A stretch of DNA of 32,000 nt, from positions 61,096 through 93,095 of the forward strand of contig NZ_BCZP01000022.1 of assembly GCF_001598795.1 (NCBI RefSeq), written 5' to 3'. A program made the position numbers and the translations under genes. The notes below the pieces were generated by a model that worked only from the letters and a program-made list of their open reading frames with translations, did not search any database and was not told where the DNA came from. Below, in pieces: positions 4,916 to 22,553 of this stretch. Position 1 is the first letter of the stretch. Each line of letters opens with the position of its first letter. The DNA comes from Delftia acidovorans NBRC 14950. GTDB taxonomy: Bacteria; Pseudomonadota; Gammaproteobacteria; Burkholderiales; Burkholderiaceae_C.

Positions 4916-7156
4916 ATGCACTCCCCCCTCCACACGCTGACCCCGATCGCCGGGGCCCTGGCCCTTCTTTTGTCTGCTGGCGCCGCATGGGCCCAGCCTG
5001 CCCCTTCCACGGCAACGGCCGCGCCCGAGCTGGGCACCGTCACCGTGGAGGCCAGCGCCGATGCGTCGGCTGAAGGCCTGTCCAGGCCCTACGCGGGCGG
5101 CCAGGTGGCGCGCGGCGGGCGGGCCGGGATTCTGGGCACGCGCGACAACATGGAGACGCCGTTCTCCATCACCAGCTACACCAACGAGCTGATCCAGGAC
5201 CGCCAGGCCAAGAGCGTGGGCGATGTGCTGCAGAACGATCCTTCCGTGCGCGTGGCGCGCGGCTTCGGCAATTTCCAGGAGTCCTACTTCGTGCGCGGCT
5301 TCGTGCTGGGCTCGGACGACGTGGCCTACAACGGCCTGTACGCCCTGCTGCCGCGCCAGTACATCGCCACCGAGCTGTTCGAGCGCGTGGAGCTGCTGCG
5401 CGGCGCATCGGCTTTTCTGATGGGCGCCAGCCCCAATGGCGGCGGGCTGGGCGGCAACATCAACCTGCTGCCCAAGCGCGCGGGCACTGATCCGCTGTCG
5501 CGCGTGACGGCAGGCATTGCCAGCGGCGGCCAGGCCTTCGTGGCGGCCGACGTGAGCCGGCGCTTCGGCCCCGACCAGGCCACGGGCATCCGCCTGAACG
5601 CTGCGCACCGGGGCGGCGATACGGCCATCGACCAGGAAAGCTCCAAGCTCGATCTGTTGTCCGTGGGCATGGACTGGCGCAGCCGCAATGTGCGCCTGTC
5701 GGGCGACATCGGCTGGCAGGACAACCGCCTCAAGCGCACGCGCACCAATGTCACGCCGGGCGCAGGGCTGGCGGCCATTCCTGCGGCGCCCGATGCTTCC
5801 TCCAACTGGGCCCAGCCCTGGACCTATTCCGACGAGCGCGACCTGTTCGGCACGCTGCGCGGCGAATGGGACATCAACAGCAACGTGACGGCCTGGGCCG
5901 CCTACGGCCTGCGCCGCAGCTCCGAGAACAACTCGCTGGCCAACATCACGCTGGCGGCGGCCGGCAATGGCGCGGCCACCACCAGCCGCTTCGACAACGC
6001 CCGCAAGGACCGCGTGAGCACGGGCGAGCTGGGCGTGCGCGCACGCCTGCAGACGGGCGATGTGGGCCATGAGATCGTCGCCAGCTATTCGGCCTTCGAC
6101 CTCAAGGTCTACAACGCCTATGGCATGAGCACCGGCGGGGGCAGCAACACGCTGGCCACCAATCTCTACGACCCGCGCTACTACGCGATCACGCCGCTCA
6201 ACTACCTGGGCAACGACCTGTCCAACCCCGCCTACAACCGGGGCACGCGCCTGAACAGCTTTGCGCTGGGCGACACGCTGTCGCTGATGGACGGCCGCAT
6301 GCTGGTGACGGCCGGCGTGCGCCGCCAGACGATAGAGACCGACTCGGTGAGCTACCGCCTCGTCAGCAACGGCGCCGTCACCAGCCAGGGCGGCGTGCGC
6401 ACGGCCTATGACCAGAGCCGCACCAGCCCGGTGCTGGGCGCGGTGTTCAAGCTCACGCCCCAGGTATCGCTGTACGGCAACTACATCGAGGGACTGGCCC
6501 AGGGCGACACGGCGCCGGCCAAGTCGGGCGACACCATCATCGCCAACGCGGGCCAGCAGATGTCGCCCTACGTGACCAAGCAAAAGGAAGTGGGCATCAA
6601 GTACGACGGCGGCAAGCTGGGCGGCGGCCTGGCCTTCTTCTCCACCGACAAGCCGCGCTCGCTGATCGACGGCAACCTCTTCACCTCGGCCGGCAAGGAC
6701 CGTCACCAGGGCGTGGAATTCAACGTCTTCGGCGAACCCATGCGCGGCCTGCGCCTGCTGGGCGGCGCCACCTGGCTGGACGCCAGGCAGCAAAGCACGG
6801 GCCGCGCCACCACCGACGGCAAGCGCGTCATCGGCGTGCCGCGCTTCCAGGCCACGGCGGGCGTGGAATGGGATGTGCCGGGCATCAACGGCCTGGCGCT
6901 GGACGGCCGCCTGGTGCACACAGGCGCCAGCTACGCCAACGACGTCAACACCCTGCGGGTGGCCGGATGGAACCGCCTGGACCTGGGCGTGCGCTACATG
7001 ACCGAAGTGCAGGGCAAGCTGCTCACGCTGCGCCTGCGCGTGGACAACGCGACGGACCGCAACTACTGGGCCTCCGTGGGCGGCTACCCGGGTTCGGGCT
7101 ACCTGACGGTGGGCGGTCCGCGCACGTTCTCGCTGAGTGCGAGTGTGGATTTCTAA
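4916..7156 (+). CDS. TonB-dependent (siderophore-type) outer-membrane receptor
   Basis: Start taken at MHSPLHTLTPIAGALALLLSAGAAWAQ (signal peptide). It has a TonB-box-like GTVTVEA, the plug motif ETPFSITSYTNELIQDRQAKSVGDVLQNDPSV, beta-barrel repeats and a C-terminal aromatic residue (SASVDF). There is no N-terminal signalling (STN) extension. Confidence 0.93.
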   Translation: MHSPLHTLTPIAGALALLLSAGAAWAQPAPSTATAAPELGTVTVEASADASAEGLSRPYAGGQVARGGRAGILGTRDNMETPFSITSYTNELIQDRQAKSVGDVLQNDPSVRVARGFGNFQESYFVRGFVLGSDDVAYNGLYALLPRQYIATELFERVELLRGASAFLMGASPNGGGLGGNINLLPKRAGTDPLSRVTAGIASGGQAFVAADVSRRFGPDQATGIRLNAAHRGGDTAIDQESSKLDLLSVGMDWRSRNVRLSGDIGWQDNRLKRTRTNVTPGAGLAAIPAAPDASSNWAQPWTYSDERDLFGTLRGEWDINSNVTAWAAYGLRRSSENNSLANITLAAAGNGAATTSRFDNARKDRVSTGELGVRARLQTGDVGHEIVASYSAFDLKVYNAYGMSTGGGSNTLATNLYDPRYYAITPLNYLGNDLSNPAYNRGTRLNSFALGDTLSLMDGRMLVTAGVRRQTIETDSVSYRLVSNGAVTSQGGVRTAYDQSRTSPVLGAVFKLTPQVSLYGNYIEGLAQGDTAPAKSGDTIIANAGQQMSPYVTKQKEVGIKYDGGKLGGGLAFFSTDKPRSLIDGNLFTSAGKDRHQGVEFNVFGEPMRGLRLLGGATWLDARQQSTGRATTDGKRVIGVPRFQATAGVEWDVPGINGLALDGRLVHTGASYANDVNTLRVAGWNRLDLGVRYMTEVQGKLLTLRLRVDNATDRNYWASVGGYPGSGYLTVGGPRTFSLSASVDF

Positions 7157-7161
7157 TGGCA

Positions 7162-7193
7162 TGCGTGCATGGCCAGACGATGCCATGCACGCA
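7162..7193. terminator. Stem-loop between convergent genes (12-bp perfect stem, 8-nt loop); candidate bidirectional terminator
   Basis: tgcgtgcatggc (7162-7173) pairs perfectly with gccatgcacgca (7182-7193). It lies 6 nt after the receptor stop. No clear U-tract follows. Confidence 0.4.
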
Positions 7194-7333
7194 CGTGACT
7201 GCCTATCGGGAGTTGGCGAGCGCCTCGCAAGCCTCACTGGCTGCGTTCGTGATGTTTGCCATGTTCACGTGGCACGAACATCAGGAAAAAGCGAACAAAG
7301 CCGGAATACCAGGCTTCAGGCCGCAGCCCGCCC

Positions 7334-7846
7334 TCAAGTCTCGCGCGGCTTGGTATCCGGCTCCGCGTCCGCCTGCGGGGGCGGCGCACTGACCACGTGC
7401 GGCAGCATCACGAGGATGACGATGGCCAGCAGCGTGGCCAGCAGCGCGATGGCTTCGCGCCCCAGGCCGCAGGCCACGCCGATGGCGGCCGTCATCCAGA
7501 TGCCGGCGGCGGTGGTCAGGCCCTGCACCTGCTCCTCGGTGTGGCGTTTGATGATGGCGCCTGCGCCCAGGAAGCCCACGCCGGCCACCACGCCCTGGAT
7601 CACGCGGCTCATGTCGGCAATGCCCATGCCTCCGCGCTCGGGCACCAGCACGAACAGCGCCGCGCCCATGGCCACCAGCATGTGGGTGCGCAGGCCGGCG
7701 GCCTTGCCCTTGTGTTCTCGCTCGTAGCCGACGATGCCGCCCAGCAGGGCCGCCAGCAGCAGGCGCACCATGACGCGCGTGACCTCGGCCGCATCGGGCA
7801 GGCTGGAGAATTCCTCGGCCAGGGTGCTGGTTACTTCCTCCCACAT
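7334..7846 (-). CDS. MgtC/SapB family membrane protein
   Basis: 170 aa with LLAALLGGIVGYEREHKGKAAGLRTHMLVAMGAALF and GLTTAAGIWMTAAIGVACGLG, both typical of the MgtC family. Confidence 0.9.
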   Translation of the reverse strand: MWEEVTSTLAEEFSSLPDAAEVTRVMVRLLLAALLGGIVGYEREHKGKAAGLRTHMLVAMGAALFVLVPERGGMGIADMSRVIQGVVAGVGFLGAGAIIKRHTEEQVQGLTTAAGIWMTAAIGVACGLGREAIALLATLLAIVILVMLPHVVSAPPPQADAEPDTKPRET

Positions 7847-7961
7847 GGCGCGTTCCTTTCCTCGGGTTGTGCGTCAGGACTCAGGAAGCGAGCATGGCGT
7901 GGCGTGCAGCGCGCCCAGGCCATCGCCCTTCGCCATTGCCTGTCAGCCAAGCGCGCCCGGC

Positions 7962-9437
7962 TCAGGCGCTTGCGGGCTTGTCCTGGTCCTTGGGCGGTGC
8001 AGCCGGCTCTGCGGCGCTGGCGGGTGCGCTGGCGGGCTCCGGTTCCGGCGCGGCGGCCGGTGCTGGTACGGGCTCAGGTACGGGCTCAGGTGCTGGCTCA
8101 GTTGCAGGTGCAGGCTCGGGAGCAGGTGCAGGCACCAGACTCAGCATGTGCTGGGCCAGCGTCTCGTACAGCGGCCGGGCCAGCATGCGCGAGACCAGGC
8201 TGGCCAGCATGGCAGCGGCCATGAGGCTGAGCACCATGGAGTGGCCGTCCACCATCTCCATCACGATGATGAAGGCCGTCAGCGGCGCCTGCGTGACGGC
8301 GGCCAGGAAGGCGGCCATGCCCATGGCGATGAGGGCGGGCGCGATGTCTGCGCCCATGAGGCCGGCCACGTTGTGGCCCACGCCCGCGCCAATCGACAGC
8401 GAGGGCGCGAAGATGCCGCCCGGCACGCCCACCCAGGCCGACAGCCAGGTGGCGATGAACTTCAGGGTGACGTAGAACGAGGGCACGTCGGCCTGGCCCG
8501 CCAGCATGTGCTTGACGGCCTCCGAGCCCGCGCCGAAGGTGGCGCCGCCCGTGACCATGCCGATGACGGCAATCACCAGCGCGATCGCCGCCGCGAAGCG
8601 GATGGGTAAGCGCGCACGCAGCTGGTTGAGCCGCTCGGGCGTGCGGGTCAGCGAGGCGGCCAGCAGCTTGGCGAACAGGCCTCCCAGCACGCCGCAGGCC
8701 AGGGTCACGCACAGGCCGGGCAGCAGCGCGTCCCAGGTCAGGTGGGGCACCTGGATGCGCCCGAAATAACTGAGGTTGCCAAAGGCCGACACGCCCATCA
8801 GGCCGGCCAGCACGATGGCCGCGATGATCAGGCCGCTGGAGCGCGACTCCAGCTTGCGCGACAGCTCCTCGATGGCGAAGACCACGCCCGCCAGCGGCGC
8901 GTTGAAGGCCGCCGCAATGCCGGCCGCGCCGCCAGCCACCAGCAGCGCATGGTGGCTGATGCCCGAATGCGGCCCGAACCAGCGCCGCGCATGGTGCATG
9001 ACACCGGCGGCCACCTGCACCGAAGGCCCCTCGCGCCCGATCGACAGCCCCGCCGCAAAGCCCGCGCTGGCCAGGGCCATCTTGGCGAAGGACAGCCACA
9101 GCGACACGAAGCGCCCGCGCTGCGCGGGGTCCAGCGCCGGGTCCAGCGTGGCGATCACCTGCGGAATGCCCGACCCCGCCGCGCCCGGCGCCCAGCGCCG
9201 CGTGAGCCACACGGCGCCCGCCGTGACGGCAGGCATCCACAGCAGAACGGCCCAGCCGCCCTGCCAGTGGTAGATGCTCTCGAAGAGTTCAAAGCCCGCG
9301 TCGGCCATCAGCGTGAAGGCCACCACGCACAGCCCGGCGGCGGCCGCATAGGCCAGCACGATGGTGCGGTCCAGCCAGCGCCTGCCGTCCCGGAATTCCT
9401 GGTTCAGGTTGTGGAGGAAGTCGGGTTCTTGCTGCAT
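7962..9437 (-). CDS. ClC family voltage-gated chloride channel / H+-Cl- antiporter with Pro/Ala/Glu-rich C-terminal tail
   Basis: 491 aa with canonical ClC selectivity motifs GSGIPQV, GREGPSVQ and GGIFAPSL. It ends in an approximately 59-aa low-complexity PAPEP tail. Confidence 0.92.
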   Translation of the reverse strand: MQQEPDFLHNLNQEFRDGRRWLDRTIVLAYAAAAGLCVVAFTLMADAGFELFESIYHWQGGWAVLLWMPAVTAGAVWLTRRWAPGAAGSGIPQVIATLDPALDPAQRGRFVSLWLSFAKMALASAGFAAGLSIGREGPSVQVAAGVMHHARRWFGPHSGISHHALLVAGGAAGIAAAFNAPLAGVVFAIEELSRKLESRSSGLIIAAIVLAGLMGVSAFGNLSYFGRIQVPHLTWDALLPGLCVTLACGVLGGLFAKLLAASLTRTPERLNQLRARLPIRFAAAIALVIAVIGMVTGGATFGAGSEAVKHMLAGQADVPSFYVTLKFIATWLSAWVGVPGGIFAPSLSIGAGVGHNVAGLMGADIAPALIAMGMAAFLAAVTQAPLTAFIIVMEMVDGHSMVLSLMAAAMLASLVSRMLARPLYETLAQHMLSLVPAPAPEPAPATEPAPEPVPEPVPAPAAAPEPEPASAPASAAEPAAPPKDQDKPASA

Positions 9438-17760: not shown

Positions 17761-17882
17761 CCCATCTAGCCTAAATTTGTCAATTCAAGTTGAAATTTAA
17801 CAATTCACCCTTAGGGTTTTATCAAATTGATCATTTATTTTTGATAGAAACTGATACTTGCACCACCTACCTGGAAAGCGCC
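17761..17882. promoter_or_regulatory. AT-rich divergent promoter region (cobG operon / chemoreceptor gene) with several short symmetric elements
   Basis: Sharp drop in G+C seen by eye. The palindrome ttcaagttgaa sits at 17784-17794. The direct repeat caattca occurs at 17781 and 17801. The inverted repeat tatcaaa (17820-17826) pairs with tttgata (17840-17846). Confidence 0.4.
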
Positions 17883-19670
17883 ATGAATCTCCGCACCTGG
17901 ACCGTCAAGACCAAGCTCTACGCCGCCTTTACCGCCCTGGCTTTACTGGTCGCACTGGTTTCCGTATCTGCCCTTCATGCGCTGGACGGTTCCGACCGCA
18001 ACCTGACGCAGTTCGTCGACGGCGTGAACGCCCGCGCCCATCTGGCCGAACAGGTGCGCGCGGCCGTGGACAGCCGCGCCATCGCGGCGCGCAACCTGGT
18101 GCTGGTGAACACGCCAGCCGATCTGGACATGGAAAAAACGGCCGTGTACGCCGCCCATGCTGCGGTCAAGTCCCACCTGGACCAGCTCAAGGCCCTTGTG
18201 GCCGCGCCCGGGGTGGGCGAGGAGGCTCGCGCCCTGGTCGCCCGCATCGACCAGATAGAGCAGCGCTACGGCCCGGTGGCGCTGGACATCGTTTCGCTGG
18301 CGCTGCGCCAGCAAAGGGACGAGGCCATTGCCAAGATGAACAGCGAGTGCCGGCCGCTGCTGGCCCAGCTGATCGCGGCCACCGACGAGTACAGCCGGCT
18401 CACGCGCCAGCACGCCCAGGTCATGGTGGAGCAGGCCACGCAGTCCTATGTGCAGCAACGCAACATGCAGATCGGCGTGAGCGCGGTCGCCTTCGTGCTG
18501 GCCCTGCTCATGGGCCGGCTGATCGCACGCGGCCTGACACGCGCGCTGGGGGCCGAGCCTGCCCAGCTCGGTGAAGTCGCCCGCCAGATCGCCGACGGCA
18601 ACCTCGACCCCGGACTGGTGCGCAGCGAAGCGCCCGCAGGCAGCGTGCAGGCCTCGCTCAACGCCATGCACCAGAGCCTGGCCAGCGTGGTCAGCGATGT
18701 GCGCAACAACGCCGACAGCGTGGCCGTGGCCAGCGAGCAGATCGCCAAGGGCAATGCCGACCTGAGCCGCCGCACCGAGCAGCAGGCCAGCGCGCTGCAG
18801 GAAACCGCAGCCTCCATGGACGAACTGTCTTCCACCGTGCAGCAGAACGCGGACAACGCGCGCCAGGTCAACCAGCTCGCGCGCGGCGCCAGCCAGGTGG
18901 CGGTCAAGGGCGGCGCCGTGGTGCAGGAAGTAGTGGGCGCCATGCAGGACATCCATGCCAGCTCGCGCCAGATCGGCGACATCGTGGGCGTGATCGACTC
19001 CATCGCCTTCCAGACCAACATCCTGGCCCTGAACGCCGCCATCGAGGCCGCGCGTGCCGGCGAGCAGGGCAAGGGCTTCGCCGTGGTGGCCGCCGAGGTA
19101 CGCACCCTGGCCCAGCGCAGCGCGCAGGCCGCCCGCGAGATCAAGCAGCTCATCACTGACAGCGCCACGCGCGTCAGCCAGGGCGCGGAGCTGGCCGACC
19201 AGGCCGGCGCCACCATGGCCGAGGTGCTGCAATCCATACAGCGCGTGACCGACCTCATGGGCGAGATCAGCAACGCCAGCGACGAGCAAAGCGCCGGTGT
19301 GGCCCAGGTCGGGCAGGCCATGAGCCAGATGGACCAGGTCACGCAGCAAAACGCCGCCCTGGTGGAGGAAAGCGCGGCGGCGGCCTCCAGCCTCAAGTCC
19401 CAGGCCCAGCGCCTGGTGCAGGCCGTGGCCATCTTCCGCCTGGGCCATCAGGGCAATGTGCCCCAGCAGCCGGGTTTTCAGGCGCCGCTGCCGGCGTCCG
19501 TGCCCATGCGCGCGGCCACGGCATCTGCGTTGGCGCCAGCCAAGCCTGCACGTGCACCTGCTTCTGCTCCTGCCCCCGTGCGGACGGCAGCTGCTGCTCG
19601 CACCTCGCCCCCTGCACGCATCGCTGCGGCCAGCCCGCCTGCCGAATCGCAGGACTGGACCAGCTTCTGA
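17883..19670 (+). CDS. Methyl-accepting chemotaxis protein (four-helix-bundle sensor, HAMP, MA domain)
   Basis: Start at [26 protein letters not shown], with GGAAAG 6 nt upstream. The highly conserved signalling hairpin is [42 protein letters not shown] long Ala/Pro tail ends in DWTSF. Confidence 0.92.
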
Positions 19671-19688
19671 GGCCGGGAATCCGCACGC

Positions 19689-20840
19689 ATGCGCCGCTAC
19701 CGCTCCTGCACCGCGCCCCTGGACAAGGCTGCGCAGGTGCGCGAACTGGAAGAGTTCTTCCGCGGGCAAAACCCCATCGACCTCGCTGCGGCCGACTGGC
19801 ACACGCGCATGGAGCAAGGCCTGACCGCCGAGGAAGAAGCCGAATTCACTGAATGGCTGGCAGCCAGCACGGCGCACGAGGCTGCCTTGCGCCACCTGGG
19901 CCAGAGCCTGGCGGCAGCGCGGTCCACTCCCCCCGAACAGGTGGCACGCCTGCGCGCGGAGCAGGCACGCAGGCGCTCGCAGTCGGCGCCTCACGCACAC
20001 CCGGAACCGGCCCCGCAGCGCCCGTCCTCCGAAGAGCGCCAAGGCTGGAGCTGGTCCCGCCTGCTGCCGCGCCCTGCCCTGGCGGCCCTGTGCTGCACGG
20101 TGGCCCTGGTCCTGACCCTGGTCCTGGCCGTGGGCGTGGGCTGGCACCAGTGGCAGCAGCAACCCACCTTCACCAGCAGCCACCTGACCCCACGGGGCCA
20201 GGCCAGGACCATCACCTTGCCGGATGGCACCGCACTGTCCCTGGATGCCGATACCCAGGCGCAGGTGGCCCTGTACCGCGACCGGCGCGAGGTGCGCATC
20301 ACGCAAGGGCAGATCCTGTTTGCCGTGGCGCTCGACAGCGCCAGGCCCTTTCATGTGCTGGCCGGCCCGGCGCGCGTCACCGTGGGCGGCACGCGGTTTT
20401 CCGTGCGCTATCGCGCCACGGGCATGGAGGCGGGCAGCGTGCAGGTAGCCGTGCAGGAAGGCCATGTGCGTGTGGCCGGCGCGCAAGGCACGGCAGCCGC
20501 TGGCGCCGCGCCCGCCGCCCTGGTCGCGGGCCAGGCCCTGAGCGTGTCGCCTGCAGGCGTGCTCGGTCCGGTGTCGGCTGTGGCGCCCGGCAGCATTGCG
20601 CTGTGGCGCAAGGGACTGATCCGCTTCGAGAACACGCCCCTGGCCGACGCCCTGGCCGAGCTGGAGCGCTACGGGCCGACCGGCCTGGTGGTGCACGACC
20701 CGGCCGTGGCGGCCCTGCGCATTGGCGGCACCTACCAGACCAATCGCCCCGCCGAGTTCGCACGCATGCTGGCCCAGATCCTGCCTGTCACTCTGGTGGC
20801 CGGGCCTGATGGCCAGACCGAGATTGCCGCTGCGCCTTGA
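19689..20840 (+). CDS. FecR family transmembrane sensor / anti-sigma factor-like protein
   Basis: 383 aa. The N-terminal AADWHTRMEQGLTAEEEAEFTEWLAASTAHEAALRHL is anti-sigma-like. It has a single TM segment (ALAALCCTVALVLTLVLAVGVGW). The FecR domain reads ITLPDGTALSLDADTQAQVALYRDRREVRITQGQILFAV...GTRFSV. The C-terminal part is LIRFENTPLADALAELERY. Confidence 0.85.
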   Translation: MRRYRSCTAPLDKAAQVRELEEFFRGQNPIDLAAADWHTRMEQGLTAEEEAEFTEWLAASTAHEAALRHLGQSLAAARSTPPEQVARLRAEQARRRSQSAPHAHPEPAPQRPSSEERQGWSWSRLLPRPALAALCCTVALVLTLVLAVGVGWHQWQQQPTFTSSHLTPRGQARTITLPDGTALSLDADTQAQVALYRDRREVRITQGQILFAVALDSARPFHVLAGPARVTVGGTRFSVRYRATGMEAGSVQVAVQEGHVRVAGAQGTAAAGAAPAALVAGQALSVSPAGVLGPVSAVAPGSIALWRKGLIRFENTPLADALAELERYGPTGLVVHDPAVAALRIGGTYQTNRPAEFARMLAQILPVTLVAGPDGQTEIAAAP

Positions 20841-20893: not shown

Positions 20894-21604
20894 TCAGCTT
20901 CCCCGCAGCCGGCGCCGGTGTTCGATCACCGTGCCCAGCAGAACCAGTCGGTTCCTGTCGCTGCGCAGCACGGCATGGTCTTCGTTGAGCGGTACCAGAT
21001 CAAAGACCTCGGTGCCGTCCTCTCCCACTCCGCGCACGCGGTACTTTCTGAGCAGCACCTGCCGCTTGCCATTCCTGGCCAGCACATGGTCGCCGGGCCG
21101 GGGGCTGGCCTGGGGATCGATCAGCACACGGTCGCCCTCGCGCAATTCGGGCGACATGGCATCGCCCTCCAGCGCAAGAAAAAACGCACCGGGCGATGCG
21201 TTGTCCTTGCCGAATTCGATGTCCAGGGTTTCAGCGGGATCGGGAAATGCGCCGTCATCTGCCAGGGATGCAGCCTGGGCATGCGAGAGAACGGGATATT
21301 GGCGCAATCCTTTGGGAAACTCGGGCAGATTGGTGCCGGGCGTGTCCCCATCTGGAAGCAGGGCCGGCAAATCGGAAACCATCTTCACCAGCCTGGGACT
21401 GATTTCGAAAAGCGAAACCTTCAAGCCCTTGGCATACGCAATGCCCGCCTCCAGGCTGATGGGCCGGTTGCCGCTTTGGTGCTGGGAGACCATGGAGGAG
21501 CCGCCAGGAATGCCGGCCTTCTCTGCGAACTCGGCCTTGCTTTTCACAGTAGAGAGCAGGCGCTTGAGGTTCGCCGCCTCTTGCTCGGTGGTCCAAACTT
21601 TCAT
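20894..21604 (-). CDS. Lambda CI-like repressor (XRE-type HTH plus S24 LexA-like peptidase domain) with substituted catalytic Ser and cleavage-site Gly
   Basis: 236 aa. The N-terminal FAEKAGIPGGSSMVSQHQSGNRPISLEAGIAYAKGLKVSLFEISPRL aligns with the lambda CI HTH region. The linker YPVLSHAQAAS aligns with lambda YPVFSHVQAGM. The C-terminal FFLALEGDAMSPELREGDRVLIDP...LLRKY aligns with FWLEVEGNSM...FKKL. Confidence 0.9.
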   Translation of the reverse strand: MKVWTTEQEAANLKRLLSTVKSKAEFAEKAGIPGGSSMVSQHQSGNRPISLEAGIAYAKGLKVSLFEISPRLVKMVSDLPALLPDGDTPGTNLPEFPKGLRQYPVLSHAQAASLADDGAFPDPAETLDIEFGKDNASPGAFFLALEGDAMSPELREGDRVLIDPQASPRPGDHVLARNGKRQVLLRKYRVRGVGEDGTEVFDLVPLNEDHAVLRSDRNRLVLLGTVIEHRRRLRGS

Positions 21605-21605
21605 G

Positions 21606-21664
21606 TAGCGATGCTAATAATCGAAACCATTAGCAATGCTTTTCATTTTTTGATAGCTATGCTA
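21606..21664. promoter_or_regulatory. Three operator-like palindromes TAGC-N3-GCTA in the 70-bp divergent intergenic region
   Basis: tagcGATgcta at 21606-21616, tagcAATgctt at 21631-21641 and tagcTATgcta at 21654-21664. Centre-to-centre spacings are 25 and 23 bp. The first lies 1 nt from the repressor ATG and the third 10 nt from the ATG at 21675. Confidence 0.6.
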
Positions 21665-21674
21665 AATTTTTCCC

Positions 21675-22379
21675 ATGAAAAATGCAGCCAGCAAAACCCT
21701 GTTCCACCGTTTCATCCCCGGCCTGCGCTTCCACTCGTTCTGGTACTACCAGGCACGCGGCTCCACGGGCAGGGTGCGCTGGGCGCGGCTGCCCATGGTG
21801 TCCGACGCCTGTGCGCTGGCCGATCCCCATGGCGCATGGTGGTGTGCGCAGCGGTGCGCCGCCGTTTTGGCGCAGCGGCCATGGCGGTCCATGCAACTGC
21901 CGCCCGGCCTGCCTGCGCAGCCGGATGCCCGCCAGATGGCGCATGTCCTGCAGCAATGGCTGCCGGGCTGGAGCGCTGCGCCGGCCAGCGTGCAGGTCTG
22001 TGCCCACGCGCTTGAGAACGGCGGCAGTGCGCTGCTGCAGCTGCATGTCTGGGCCAGGAGCGCGCCCAGCATTCTTTGGGCATGGGTGGTAGGGGTGGAG
22101 GTCCAGGCGCGCCAATCCCTTCAGGGGCTGGCGCCTGCGCCAGGCAGCCTGCAAGCCGGGCACCTGTCCCCGCGAGCCCTGCTGATCGTTCCCTTCGGCC
22201 AGGACATGCCCTGGGCCACCGGCCATACCGCCCGGGTTCGCCTGCATGCACGGGGACCTCAACCGCACGGGCCACATGAAGTGGTGGCGCAGGACGGCTG
22301 CTGGTTTGAAGACAGTGGCCTGGATGCCGTGTTGCTGAAGCCGGTCTTGCGCGTTCAGGATGAGCGCGTATCCCTATGA
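21675..22379 (+). CDS. Hypothetical Trp/Arg-rich protein (234 aa), divergent from the CI-like repressor
   Basis: By my hand count about 80 percent of the first 60 codons end in G or C, which fits coding sequence. The competing minus-strand ORFs translate to Arg/Ala/Pro junk. No Shine-Dalgarno sequence and no recognisable family motif. The start is uncertain (alternative ATG at 21795). Confidence 0.55.
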   Translation: MKNAASKTLFHRFIPGLRFHSFWYYQARGSTGRVRWARLPMVSDACALADPHGAWWCAQRCAAVLAQRPWRSMQLPPGLPAQPDARQMAHVLQQWLPGWSAAPASVQVCAHALENGGSALLQLHVWARSAPSILWAWVVGVEVQARQSLQGLAPAPGSLQAGHLSPRALLIVPFGQDMPWATGHTARVRLHARGPQPHGPHEVVAQDGCWFEDSGLDAVLLKPVLRVQDERVSL

Positions 22380-22382
22380 AGA

Positions 22383-22412
22383 GCCAGATGGGGCCAGATG
22401 GCGCCAGATGGC
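22383..22412. repeat. Three tandem 10-bp direct repeats GCCAGATGG(G/C)
   Basis: gccagatggg gccagatggc gccagatggc, read directly. The array begins 4 nt after the stop of the hypothetical ORF and lies about 140 nt upstream of the DsbG-like gene. Confidence 0.9.
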
Positions 22413-22553
22413 GCAAGCGATTTCCTATAACGATGGAACGCGGTGGATGCACTCCGACTCACACTGTCCGCAGCTGTTGCCACAGCACCAGGCGCTGCAC
22501 CCTTGCCGCACAGCGCCGCCCCCTCATTCATTCAACCGTTTCAAGGAGTTCCC

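What the first reader, a model, noticed from the sequence alone, without database searches (positions are those of the whole stretch)
21158..21274. CI-like repressor has Ala at both the nucleophilic Ser and the Gly of the Ala-Gly cleavage site
The S24 domain aligns residue for residue with the common GDSMEP-x4-GD-x-VLVD motif, but reads GDAMSPELREGDRVLID. The codon at 21158-21160 is GCC (Ala) where the catalytic Ser (lambda CI Ser149) should be. The linker reads YPVLSHAQAAS where lambda CI has YPVFSHVQAGM. So the scissile Ala-Gly is Ala-Ala here (codons at 21269-21274). The general-base Lys appears retained (LLRKY versus FKKL). Each change is one nucleotide away from the canonical residue. Two independent hits on the same chemistry suggest that RecA-stimulated self-cleavage has been lost. 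The switch would then be SOS-blind, and would be either locked or released by another route such as an antirepressor, a ligand or proteolysis by another protease.
Basis: partly seen in the sequence, partly recalled or inferred. Interest (0 to 1): 0.7.

Follow-up and report, generated by a model that had tools for sequence, protein, structure and literature searches.

The report
Self-cleavage-dead lambda-like repressor in Delftia
A Delftia chromosomal gene encodes a lambda-CI-like repressor that has lost all three residues needed to cut itself after DNA damage, yet it is conserved and always sits beside an unknown protease-like gene, so it is probably a DNA-damage-blind switch for that gene.

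Summary
The core observation holds. Codon 21160-21158 (GCC) puts Ala where lambda CI has Ser149, and 21274-21269 encode Ala-Ala in place of the Ala111-Gly112 scissile bond.

CI Lys192 / LexA Lys156 aligns with Arg186 (AGA, 21049-21047). Lys187 matches the non-catalytic second residue of FKK/VKR. So all three cleavage determinants are gone.

This is a clade trait, not an error. Arg is fixed in all relatives, Ser/Ala and the site vary, and the domain is under purifying selection (dN/dS 0.2-0.4). About 15% of the nearest S24 clusters lack the dyad, mostly through Lys->Arg, so dyad-less CI-like repressors recur.

The gene is not in a prophage. It is half of a two-gene Delftia cassette. A 70-bp divergent region with three TAGC-N3-GCTA sites separates it from an orphan 234-aa protein. 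That protein's model resembles papain-like cysteine proteases.

Every S24 gene found beside this partner family, in two unrelated S24 lineages, has Arg at the Lys position. Two canonical relatives sit in real prophages.

Best reading: an SOS-blind lambda-type repressor that keeps the partner gene silent. How it is released is unknown.

The parts
20894..21604 (-). Gene for the 236-aa CI-like repressor: lambda-type helical DNA-binding domain, linker, S24-fold C-terminal domain
   Evidence: ORF. Pfam PF00717. phmmer to lambda repressor 3bdn over residues 24-216, E = 1.8e-8. AF2 model pLDDT 84. Best Foldseek PDB hit is full-length lambda repressor 3bdn, E = 1.2e-10; also LexA, UmuD' and lambda N-terminal-domain structures.
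21371..21604 (-). N-terminal DNA-binding domain, residues 1-78, six predicted helices
   Evidence: Aligns with lambda CI residues 34-92. Helices H6-17 to H70-77 in the model. Foldseek hits 1lmb, 1lli and 3kz3. The same domain, 67% identical, is fused to a non-S24 C-terminal domain in an IMG/VR phage contig.
21320..21361 (-). Flexible linker, residues 82-95
   Evidence: pLDDT below 50 in the AF2 model.
21269..21274 (-). Remnant of the cleavage site: Ala111-Ala112 where CI has Ala111-Gly112
   Evidence: This column varies within the clade (AA, AS, AG, AV, TS).
21158..21160 (-). Ala149 (GCC) in the column of the nucleophilic Ser (CI S149, LexA S119, UmuD S60)
21047..21049 (-). Arg186 (AGA) in the column of the general-base Lys (CI K192, LexA K156, UmuD K97).
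   Evidence: Invariant Arg in window, P0001-P0015 and the S24 genes of L011, L015, L019, L020 and L022.
20897..21307 (-). S24-fold C-terminal domain, residues 100-236, catalytically degenerate but conserved
   Evidence: pLDDT about 90. TM 0.71-0.77 to lambda CI C-terminal-domain structures. dN/dS 0.18-0.42 against six orthologues/paralogues.
21605..21674 (.). 70-bp AT-rich divergent control region between the repressor gene and the partner gene
   Evidence: GC falls to 0.3-0.5 here against about 0.70 for the window.
21606..21616 (.). Putative operator 1, TAGCGATGCTA (perfect TAGC-N3-GCTA palindrome), abuts the repressor start codon
   Evidence: Conserved in L001-L006, L018 and L032.
21631..21641 (.). 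Putative operator 2, TAGCAATGCTT (one mismatch)
21654..21664 (.). Putative operator 3, TAGCTATGCTA (perfect palindrome), 10 nt before the partner start codon
   Evidence: Centre-to-centre spacings are 25 and 23 bp.
21675..22379 (+). Partner gene: orphan 234-aa protein with a papain-like cysteine-protease-like fold. Invariant Cys57 (21843-21845), Cys61 (21855-21857), Glu142 (22098-22100), Arg187; near-invariant His11 (21705-21707).
   Evidence: Called as a gene in Delftia genomes. 22-28 homologous clusters, none annotated. Alignment A2. AF2 pLDDT 78.7, pTM 0.79. Foldseek top hits are staphopains, the TDE0362 protease, PCAT1 C39 domain, IdeS/IdeC, papain-like toxins and an AvrRpt2-like protein, with probabilities 0.6-1.0 but E only 3e-3 to 0.09. 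No Pfam, PDB-sequence, PADLOC or PHROG hit.

Best explanation
The gene encodes a lambda-CI-type repressor whose S24 domain has become a pseudo-peptidase. Nucleophile (Ser->Ala149), general base (Lys->Arg186) and scissile bond (Ala-Gly->Ala-Ala) are all replaced.

Proposed mechanism:
- The folded S24 domain is kept for what it also does in CI, namely dimerisation and cooperative contacts. Possibly it is also a docking surface. (Inferred.)
- The N-terminal domain binds three TAGC-N3-GCTA sites, spaced 25 and 23 bp apart, in the 70-bp divergent region. This layout resembles lambda OR. (Inferred from sequence.)
- Binding represses the divergent 234-aa gene and autoregulates the repressor's own gene. 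(Inferred.)
- Because it cannot cut itself, activated RecA cannot flip the switch directly. The module is SOS-blind at the repressor level.

The module is a small, horizontally acquired cassette in Comamonadaceae chromosomes, not a prophage. Its only cargo is the partner protein, which models as a papain-like cysteine-protease-like fold.

Derepression must come from outside the repressor's own chemistry. The candidates are dilution or turnover by a cell protease, an unlinked antirepressor, or the partner itself acting in positive feedback.

Shown: residue identities, column assignments, clade conservation, gene context, site conservation. Inferred: DNA binding, repression, loss of cleavage, role of the partner.
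For: (1) All three determinants are replaced, by two alignment methods and checked reference numbering.

(2) The fold and two-domain architecture are those of lambda CI.

(3) It is not a pseudogene.
- The ORF is intact in many Delftia genomes.
- C-terminal-domain dN/dS is 0.18-0.42.
- Arg is invariant at the Lys column, while the Ser column is S or A and the site column varies.

(4) The three operator-like palindromes occur only in the intergenic region within the 32 kb.
- Their half-sites are kept in L018 while centres and spacers change.
- They recur in front of a 57%-identical orthologue, L032.
- They are absent where the gene sits second in an operon behind another repressor, L007-10.

(5) The repressor-partner gene pair is conserved in different chromosomal neighbourhoods: window/L001-6, L007-10, L011, L015-17, L018-22, L032.

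(6) Every S24 gene found beside a partner gene has Arg at the Lys column. This includes a second, unrelated S24 lineage (L019/L020/L021, 'MLVRRFQ'), whose canonical relatives read 'NYVKRV'.

(7) Canonical Ser/Lys relatives with the same N-terminal domain (P0016) or the closest C-terminal domain (P0029) lie in genuine prophages without the partner.

(8) No SOS box lies in or next to the cassette.
Against: - There is no experiment. Loss of cleavage, DNA binding and repression are all inferred.
- Arg at the general-base position is not necessarily an absolute block where Ser is kept. From memory, the classical LexA K156R work reports residual autodigestion at very high pH. That caveat applies to Ser/Arg relatives, not to this Ala149 protein.
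- The simple sigma-70 scan found no promoter in the intergenic region.
- The 11-nt motif with one mismatch is not rare by count alone (4 found, 4.2 expected). The argument rests on clustering, spacing and conservation.
- The partner's protease assignment is weak: Foldseek E >= 2.7e-3, TM 0.35-0.45, and no invariant His after the Cys.
- The Arg-partner association rests on only two independent S24 lineages, against a background of about 15% dyad loss.
Confidence: 0.6

Rival explanations
1. Trans-cleavage switch. The papain-like partner has taken over the job of the lost S24 chemistry. It cleaves or sequesters the repressor, much as ImmA acts on ImmR in ICEBs1. Because the repressor represses the partner gene, this gives a bistable positive-feedback switch triggered by some signal that activates the protease.
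For: - Strict adjacency of the partner family with dyad-less S24 repressors, in two unrelated S24 lineages.
- The partner models as a papain-like fold, with invariant Cys57 in a 'WWCxxxCAAVL' helix that, from memory, resembles the C39 motif.
- The literature already describes repressors without an autoproteolytic domain that are inactivated by a separately encoded peptidase or antirepressor (PMC10432266).
Against: - No evidence of interaction, and no conserved candidate cut site in the linkers.
- The partner lacks an obvious catalytic His after the Cys.
- Some partner genes sit beside an 85-aa HTH-only regulator with no S24 domain (L012-14).
- Partner genes occur in tandem arrays of up to five. 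That looks more like cargo than a dedicated regulator.
Confidence: 0.18
2. Locked guard of a harmful cargo. The partner is a cytoplasmic papain-like toxin or effector, and the non-cleavable repressor simply keeps it silent. From memory, the RacR/ydaS-ydaT module of the Rac prophage works this way. The module would behave as an addiction, abortive-infection or defence cassette, released only when repressor synthesis fails.
For: - Several fold hits are papain-like interbacterial toxins: CDI CdiA-CT 8ssm, T6SS effector 9jdd, toxin/immunity pair 9l5u.
- The cassette is small, lower in GC3 than its flanks (0.73-0.77 against 0.82-0.95) and inserted at varied chromosomal sites.
- Partner paralogues amplify in arrays.
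- Some versions carry a YdaS/P22-Cro-like gene.
Against: - No PADLOC hit for any component except generic HTH matches.
- No immunity-like gene is consistently present.
- Toxicity is untested.
- The partner family is absent from IMG/VR.
Confidence: 0.25
3. The protein still self-cleaves, using other residues (for example Ser151 of GDAMSP, Lys187) and a shifted bond.
For: Ser151 and Lys187 exist. Some relatives keep Ser149 (P0005, 6, 12, 14) or an Ala-Gly (P0011, P0015).
Against: - Ser151 is Ala or Leu in close relatives.
- Lys187 matches the second residue of FKK/VKR, which is K, R or Q in active enzymes. On a beta-strand it would point the opposite way from position 186.
- No relative combines Ser, Lys and X-Gly.
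- The aligned motif 'KYR' leaves no room for a register shift.
Confidence: 0.04
4. Decaying relic of a dead prophage immunity region, with no present function.
For: The setting is an orphan one with no phage genes nearby. Catalytic residues are degenerate. The locus varies between Delftia strains.
Against: - Purifying selection on both domains.
- Intact ORFs and conserved operators at 57-97% protein identity.
- The pairing is conserved across Delftia, Comamonas and metagenomes.
Confidence: 0.07

Closest known systems
Bacteriophage lambda CI repressor (MEROPS family S24, Pfam PF00717)
   Same: Same two-domain architecture and fold. It is the best PDB match by sequence and by structure. The linker motif YPV(L/F)SH-xQA is shared. 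Three evenly spaced palindromic sites lie in a short divergent control region, and the repressor start codon abuts the nearest site.
   Different: Ser149->Ala, Lys192->Arg and Gly112->Ala, so no self-cleavage is expected. The gene is not in a prophage. The divergent gene is not cro but an orphan protease-like gene; in some strains a YdaS/P22-Cro-like gene lies in between.
Synechocystis sp. PCC 6803 LexA (Sll1626)
   Same: An S24-domain transcription factor that lacks the Ala-Gly site and the Ser of the dyad, and is thought not to act through self-cleavage (PMC1524924; PMC7567884 abstract). It is the precedent for a non-cleaving S24 regulator kept by selection.
   Different: It has a LexA winged-helix N-terminal domain and is a global regulator. 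The paper names only the Ser and the Ala-Gly site as altered. No dedicated neighbouring partner gene is described in what I read.
Non-cleavable phage repressors released by antirepressors or peptidases (Gifsy GfoR/GtgR; N15 cI; ICEBs1 ImmR/ImmA)
   Same: The functional logic is the same: the repressor cannot self-cleave and is inactivated by a separate protein (PMC3121763; PMC10432266). ImmR/ImmA is cited from memory.
   Different: Those repressors lack the peptidase domain altogether. This one keeps a folded but dead S24 domain. ImmA is a metalloprotease co-transcribed with its substrate. Here the candidate is a papain-like protein encoded in the repressed, divergent direction. No LexA-controlled antirepressor is visible in this window.
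Papain-like cysteine proteases (staphopain C47, AvrRpt2 C70, C39 bacteriocin-processing domain), for the partner protein
   Same: The predicted fold is similar, and a conserved Cys lies in the first long helix.
   Different: There is no sequence-level match to any family. No invariant His or Asn/Asp follows the Cys; the only near-invariant His is N-terminal, at position 11. There is an extra N-terminal beta-sheet.

Membership tests
Peptidase S24 / LexA-like fold (Pfam PF00717) | Significant match to the family profile, and the S24 beta-fold | tested here: met
   42.8 bits against a gathering score of 23.3. Foldseek to CI, LexA and UmuD' C-terminal domains gives probability 1.0 and TM 0.65-0.77 relative to the target.
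Active S24 self-cleaving peptidase | Nucleophilic Ser (CI S149, LexA S119) | tested here: not met
   Ala149, GCC at 21160-21158.
Active S24 self-cleaving peptidase | General-base Lys (CI K192, LexA K156) | tested here: not met
   Arg186, AGA at 21049-21047. Lys187 aligns with the non-catalytic neighbour.
Active S24 self-cleaving peptidase | Ala-Gly or Cys-Gly scissile bond in the linker. PMC8565304 lists this bond and the Ser-Lys dyad as the family's determinants. | tested here: not met
   Ala111-Ala112, 21274-21269.
Active S24 self-cleaving peptidase | RecA-stimulated or alkaline autodigestion | not testable with these tools
   Needs purified protein or a western blot after DNA damage.
Lambda-type CI prophage repressor | Lambda-like helical HTH N-terminal domain joined to an S24 C-terminal domain | tested here: met
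   PHROG phrog_4 'transcriptional repressor', E = 7e-21.
Lambda-type CI prophage repressor | Multiple operators in a divergent promoter region | tested here: inconclusive
   Three conserved TAGC-N3-GCTA sites at 25/23-bp spacing. Binding is untested, and the consensus scan found no promoter.
Lambda-type CI prophage repressor | Sits in the immunity region of a prophage | tested here: not met
   The flanks are a chemoreceptor, FecR, a thioredoxin-like gene, GST and an RND pump. Canonical relatives P0016 and P0029 are in prophages.
LexA (SOS master repressor) | LexA winged-helix domain or NCBIfam LexA model; SOS boxes | tested here: not met
   No NCBIfam hit. The N-terminal domain is CI-like. No CTGT-N8-ACAG site lies in or next to the cassette, 20894-22379.
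Papain-like cysteine protease (partner protein) | Papain-like fold with the Cys at the start of the core helix | tested here: inconclusive
   Top Foldseek hits are consistently papain-like, but E >= 2.7e-3 and TM is 0.35-0.45. Cys57 lies in helix 54-66.
Papain-like cysteine protease (partner protein) | Catalytic His (plus Asn/Asp) on the beta-sheet after the Cys | tested here: not met
   There is no invariant His after Cys57. The only near-invariant His is His11. Glu142 and Arg187 are invariant.

The most novel reading that the evidence does not exclude
Dyad-less (Lys->Arg) S24 repressors and the orphan papain-like protein form a previously undescribed two-component switch. In it, a cysteine protease, or a pseudo-protease that binds the dead S24 cleft, replaces RecA-stimulated autocleavage as the way to inactivate a lambda-type repressor. 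The invariant Arg would be part of that new interface rather than a mere loss-of-function lesion.
Probability: 0.15. Interest if true: 0.75.

Novelty: new variant of a known kind. Interest (0 to 1): 0.45.

Why it matters
Annotation pipelines label such genes 'LexA family protein' or 'SOS-response repressor'. That wrongly implies DNA-damage control.

About one in seven of the S24 clusters nearest to this protein lack the dyad, mostly through Lys->Arg. A sizeable set of CI-like repressors, including some in real prophages (P0064), should therefore not respond to RecA directly. This bears on predicting prophage inducibility.

This case also offers a compact, testable system: two genes and 70 bp of control DNA. 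It can be used to ask what an S24 domain does once its chemistry is gone, and whether the always-adjacent protease-like orphan is the missing release factor or the guarded cargo.

Tried and rejected
- I guessed that the large downstream minus-strand genes might be an imuA-imuB-dnaE2 SOS mutagenesis cassette. Pfam shows an RND efflux pump (AcrB, membrane-fusion protein, TetR) instead.
- A search for beta-proteobacterial SOS boxes (CTGT-N8-ACAG) found fewer than chance, and none in or next to the cassette (20894-22379).
- The sigma-70 promoter scan of the control region found nothing.
- No flanking direct repeats or attachment-like sites bound the cassette.
- For the partner protein there were no hits in Pfam, NCBIfam, PADLOC, PHROGs or a PDB sequence-profile search.
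- A profile search of 5.8 billion proteins added only close relatives.
- The partner family was not found in IMG/VR.
- No close relative of the repressor exists in sequenced phages; the best is about 40% identity over part of the protein.
- Literature searches for a cysteine protease that cleaves a phage repressor, and for LexA K156R data, returned nothing usable.
- The idea that Ser151 or Lys187 could rescue catalysis was rejected on conservation and register.
Full report
THE OBSERVATION

The ORF at window 20894..21604 (minus strand, 236 aa) matches Pfam Peptidase_S24 at 42.8 bits against a cut-off of 23.3. Read on the minus strand, 21160-21158 is GCC (Ala149) inside 'LEGDAMSPELREGDRVLID'. 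Positions 21274-21269 are GCT GCA (Ala111-Ala112) inside 'YPVLSHAQAASL'.

phmmer against PDB sequences gives lambda repressor 3bdn as the best hit (E = 1.8e-8). It aligns 'EGDAMS' with 'EGNSMT' and 'YPVLSHAQAAS' with 'YPVFSHVQAGM'. MAFFT alignments with lambda CI, E. coli LexA and UmuD plus 24 homologues or about 180 homologues place the same residues in the same columns.

I verified the reference numbering from the sequences: CI Ala111/Ser149/Lys192, LexA Ala84/Ser119/Lys156, UmuD Cys24/Ser60/Lys97.

THE CORRECTION

It is not. Lys192 is the first K of FKKL: the K192A structures 2hnf and 8gmu read FAKL. LexA Lys156 is the K of VKRL.

In every alignment that column holds Arg186 of the window protein (AGA, 21049-21047). 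Lys187 matches the following residue, which is K, R or Q in active enzymes. The closest canonical relatives read 'ATFKKYRP' against 'VLLRKYRV' here, so no register shift is available. All three determinants of S24 self-cleavage are therefore replaced. [quoted passage not shown]

NOT AN ERROR AND NOT DECAY

- The identical protein is found on eight contigs, including two Delftia genomes of 4.2 and 6.8 Mb. This places the window in a Delftia chromosome.
- In the clade of relatives (P0001-P0015 and the S24 genes of loci L011, L015, L019, L020, L022), Arg at the Lys column is invariant. The nucleophile column is Ala or Ser. The site column reads AA, AS, AG, AV or TS.
- Nei-Gojobori dN/dS for the C-terminal domain against six orthologues and paralogues is 0.18-0.42. 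The dead domain is under purifying selection. Synonymous sites are near saturation for the distant pairs.
- The pattern suggests Lys->Arg came first, and that Ser->Ala and Gly->Ala are later drift. The 'two hits' are therefore not independent.

HOW UNUSUAL IT IS

I searched 1.84 billion cluster representatives and tabulated the 145 nearest clusters that cover the domain.
- 123 have Ser and Lys.
- 11 have Ser without Lys.
- 10 lack both.
- 1 lacks only Ser.
- Of the 21 without Lys, 17 have Arg.
- Loss of Ser and loss of Lys are linked (Fisher p = 4e-9). Loss of an X-Gly site and loss of Lys are linked (p = 2e-13). Neither test is corrected for shared ancestry.

About 15% of this neighbourhood of S24 repressors is therefore dyad-less. 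At least one such protein, P0064 (Ala/Arg), sits in a genuine prophage next to replication genes and a Bro-N protein.

A non-cleaving S24 regulator is also on record. Synechocystis LexA lacks the Ala-Gly site and the Ser (PMC1524924). The general phenomenon is known. What the literature describes for non-cleavable phage repressors is usually absence of the peptidase domain, with release by a separate antirepressor or peptidase (PMC10432266; PMC3121763).

STRUCTURE

An AlphaFold2 model has mean pLDDT 84. It shows a six-helix N-terminal domain, a disordered linker (residues 82-95) and a confident beta-rich C-terminal domain.

Its best PDB matches are full-length lambda repressor (3bdn, E = 1.2e-10), then lambda CI C-terminal fragments, LexA and UmuD'. 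Lambda N-terminal-domain structures match the N-terminus. By architecture the protein is a lambda CI homologue.

CONTEXT

The gene is not in a prophage.
- On one side lie a chemoreceptor gene and a FecR-like gene.
- On the other side lie a thioredoxin-like gene, a GST, an outer-membrane factor, an AcrB-type pump, a membrane-fusion protein and a TetR gene.
- The repressor gene and its divergent neighbour have lower GC3 (0.73-0.77) than the flanking genes (0.82-0.95). This fits horizontal acquisition.

THE CONTROL REGION

The 70-bp intergenic region (21605-21674) is AT-rich. It holds three copies of TAGC-N3-GCT(A/T), at 21606-21616, 21631-21641 and 21654-21664, spaced 25 and 23 bp apart.
- Apart from one unrelated single-mismatch hit at 18258, these are the only matches in the 32 kb.
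- In D. acidovorans MMO-42 (L018) the half-sites are kept while centres and spacers differ.
- They recur in front of a 57%-identical orthologue (L032).
- They are absent from Delftia loci where the gene is second in an operon.
- The outer sites abut the two start codons.

This is the layout of a lambda-like tripartite operator. Binding itself is inferred.

THE NEIGHBOUR

The divergent ORF 21675..22379 (234 aa) is called as a gene in Delftia genomes. It belongs to a small orphan family of 22-28 clusters, all unannotated, found only in Delftia, Comamonas and Acidovorax and absent from IMG/VR.

Invariant residues include Cys57 and Cys61 ('WWCxxxCAAVL'), Trp135/137, Glu142 and Arg187. His11 is nearly invariant.

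An AlphaFold2 model (pLDDT 78.7, pTM 0.79) gives Foldseek hits that are consistently papain-like cysteine proteases: staphopains, the TDE0362 protease, the PCAT1 C39 domain, IdeS/IdeC, papain-like CDI/T6SS toxins, and in BFVD an AvrRpt2-like protein.
- Probabilities are 0.6-1.0.
- E-values are weak (2.7e-3 to 0.09) and TM-scores are about 0.35-0.45.
- No sequence library recognises the protein.
- No invariant His follows the Cys.

Whether it is an active protease is open.

THE ASSOCIATION

Using HMMs built from my alignments on all fetched loci, every partner gene with a neighbouring S24 gene has a dyad-less one.
- Four N-terminal-domain types share the window's kind of C-terminal domain: window type, P0010 type, P0011/P0015/L015 type and L019:4226 type.
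- A second, unrelated S24 lineage (L019:3235-4215, L020:4163-4822, L021:4219-4914) keeps Ser ('TGTSMEP') but reads 'MLVRRFQ'. Its canonical relatives read 'NYVKRV'.
- The P0006 locus shows the same pairing.
- Some versions insert a YdaS/P22-Cro-like gene between operator and partner.
- Some have arrays of up to five partner paralogues.
- One type pairs the partner with an 85-aa HTH-only protein.
- Canonical relatives with the same N-terminal domain (P0016) or the closest C-terminal domain (P0029) lie in real prophages without the partner.

With a background of about 15% dyad loss, two independent lineages are suggestive, not proof.

MECHANISM

Best-supported reading (confidence about 0.6 for the core): a lambda-type repressor whose S24 domain survives as a dimerisation/cooperativity module without chemistry. 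It binds three operators, represses the partner gene and autoregulates. It cannot be switched by RecA.

Specific readings of the release and the cargo:
- The partner is harmful cargo kept silent by a locked repressor (0.25).
- The partner inactivates the repressor in trans, like ImmA/ImmR (0.18).

Less likely readings:
- Residual self-cleavage through other residues (0.04).
- A functionless relic (0.07).

VERDICT

The thing is a new variant of a known kind. Dyad-less S24 regulators exist, but a conserved Lys->Arg CI-like repressor tied to an orphan papain-like gene in a two-gene chromosomal cassette has not, to my knowledge, been described. Interest is moderate (0.45). The most novel reading still allowed is a cysteine-protease-driven repressor switch. 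It has a probability of about 0.15 and would be of high interest if true.

Noticed in passing
window 22383-22417: About 3.5 tandem copies of a 10-nt unit (GCCAGATGGC) lie between the partner gene's stop codon (22379) and the start of the thioredoxin-like gene (22443).
   Followed up: no
window 19689-20840 and 17790-19670: A FecR-like anti-sigma gene has no adjacent ECF sigma gene in the window. It follows a methyl-accepting chemotaxis gene by 18 nt. This arrangement is conserved in other Delftia genomes.
   Followed up: no
L007-L010, about 6970-9360: In other Delftia genomes the same site holds an extra YdaS/P22-Cro-like gene and a second dyad-less S24 repressor (P0010: HTH_3 domain, 'LEGNAMS', 'LLRKYRV'). 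That repressor sits 9 nt upstream of the 236-aa gene, which there lacks its own operators. L007-9 also carry a TonB receptor/FecR/ECF-sigma insertion, so the locus is a variable hot spot.
   Followed up: partly
L020 4163-9382 (Delftia acidovorans MMO-42, contig 7): An array of two dyad-less S24 genes from different lineages and five partner-family paralogues, some overlapping or truncated.
   Followed up: partly
L027 7622-8408 (IMG/VR viral contig): A phage repressor has the same N-terminal DNA-binding domain (67% identity over residues 21-78) but a helical, non-S24 C-terminal domain. It is divergent from a YdaS/Cro-like gene. The DNA-binding domain is evidently shuffled among different C-terminal domains.
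   Followed up: partly
L025/L026 5001-5708: A dyad-less S24 repressor (P0064: Ala at the Ser column, Arg at the Lys column, no Ala-Gly) sits in a genuine phage context with an IstB-like helicase loader and SSB; L025 also has a Bro-N protein. Dyad-less CI-like repressors are therefore not confined to orphan cassettes.
   Followed up: no
window 17943-20696 (-) and other long antisense ORFs: Very long ORFs lie antisense to real genes, for example 917 aa opposite the MCP and FecR genes. They are artefacts of the roughly 70% GC content; their GC3 pattern is wrong for coding.
   Followed up: yes
window 21287-21307 and 21254-21283 (repressor residues 100-106 and 108-117): The AF2 model predicts a strand for 'RQYPVLS' and two short helices (residues 108-112 and 114-117) over the former cleavage-site region 'AQAASLADDG'. 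From memory, active S24 proteins have a strand-loop there.
   Followed up: no
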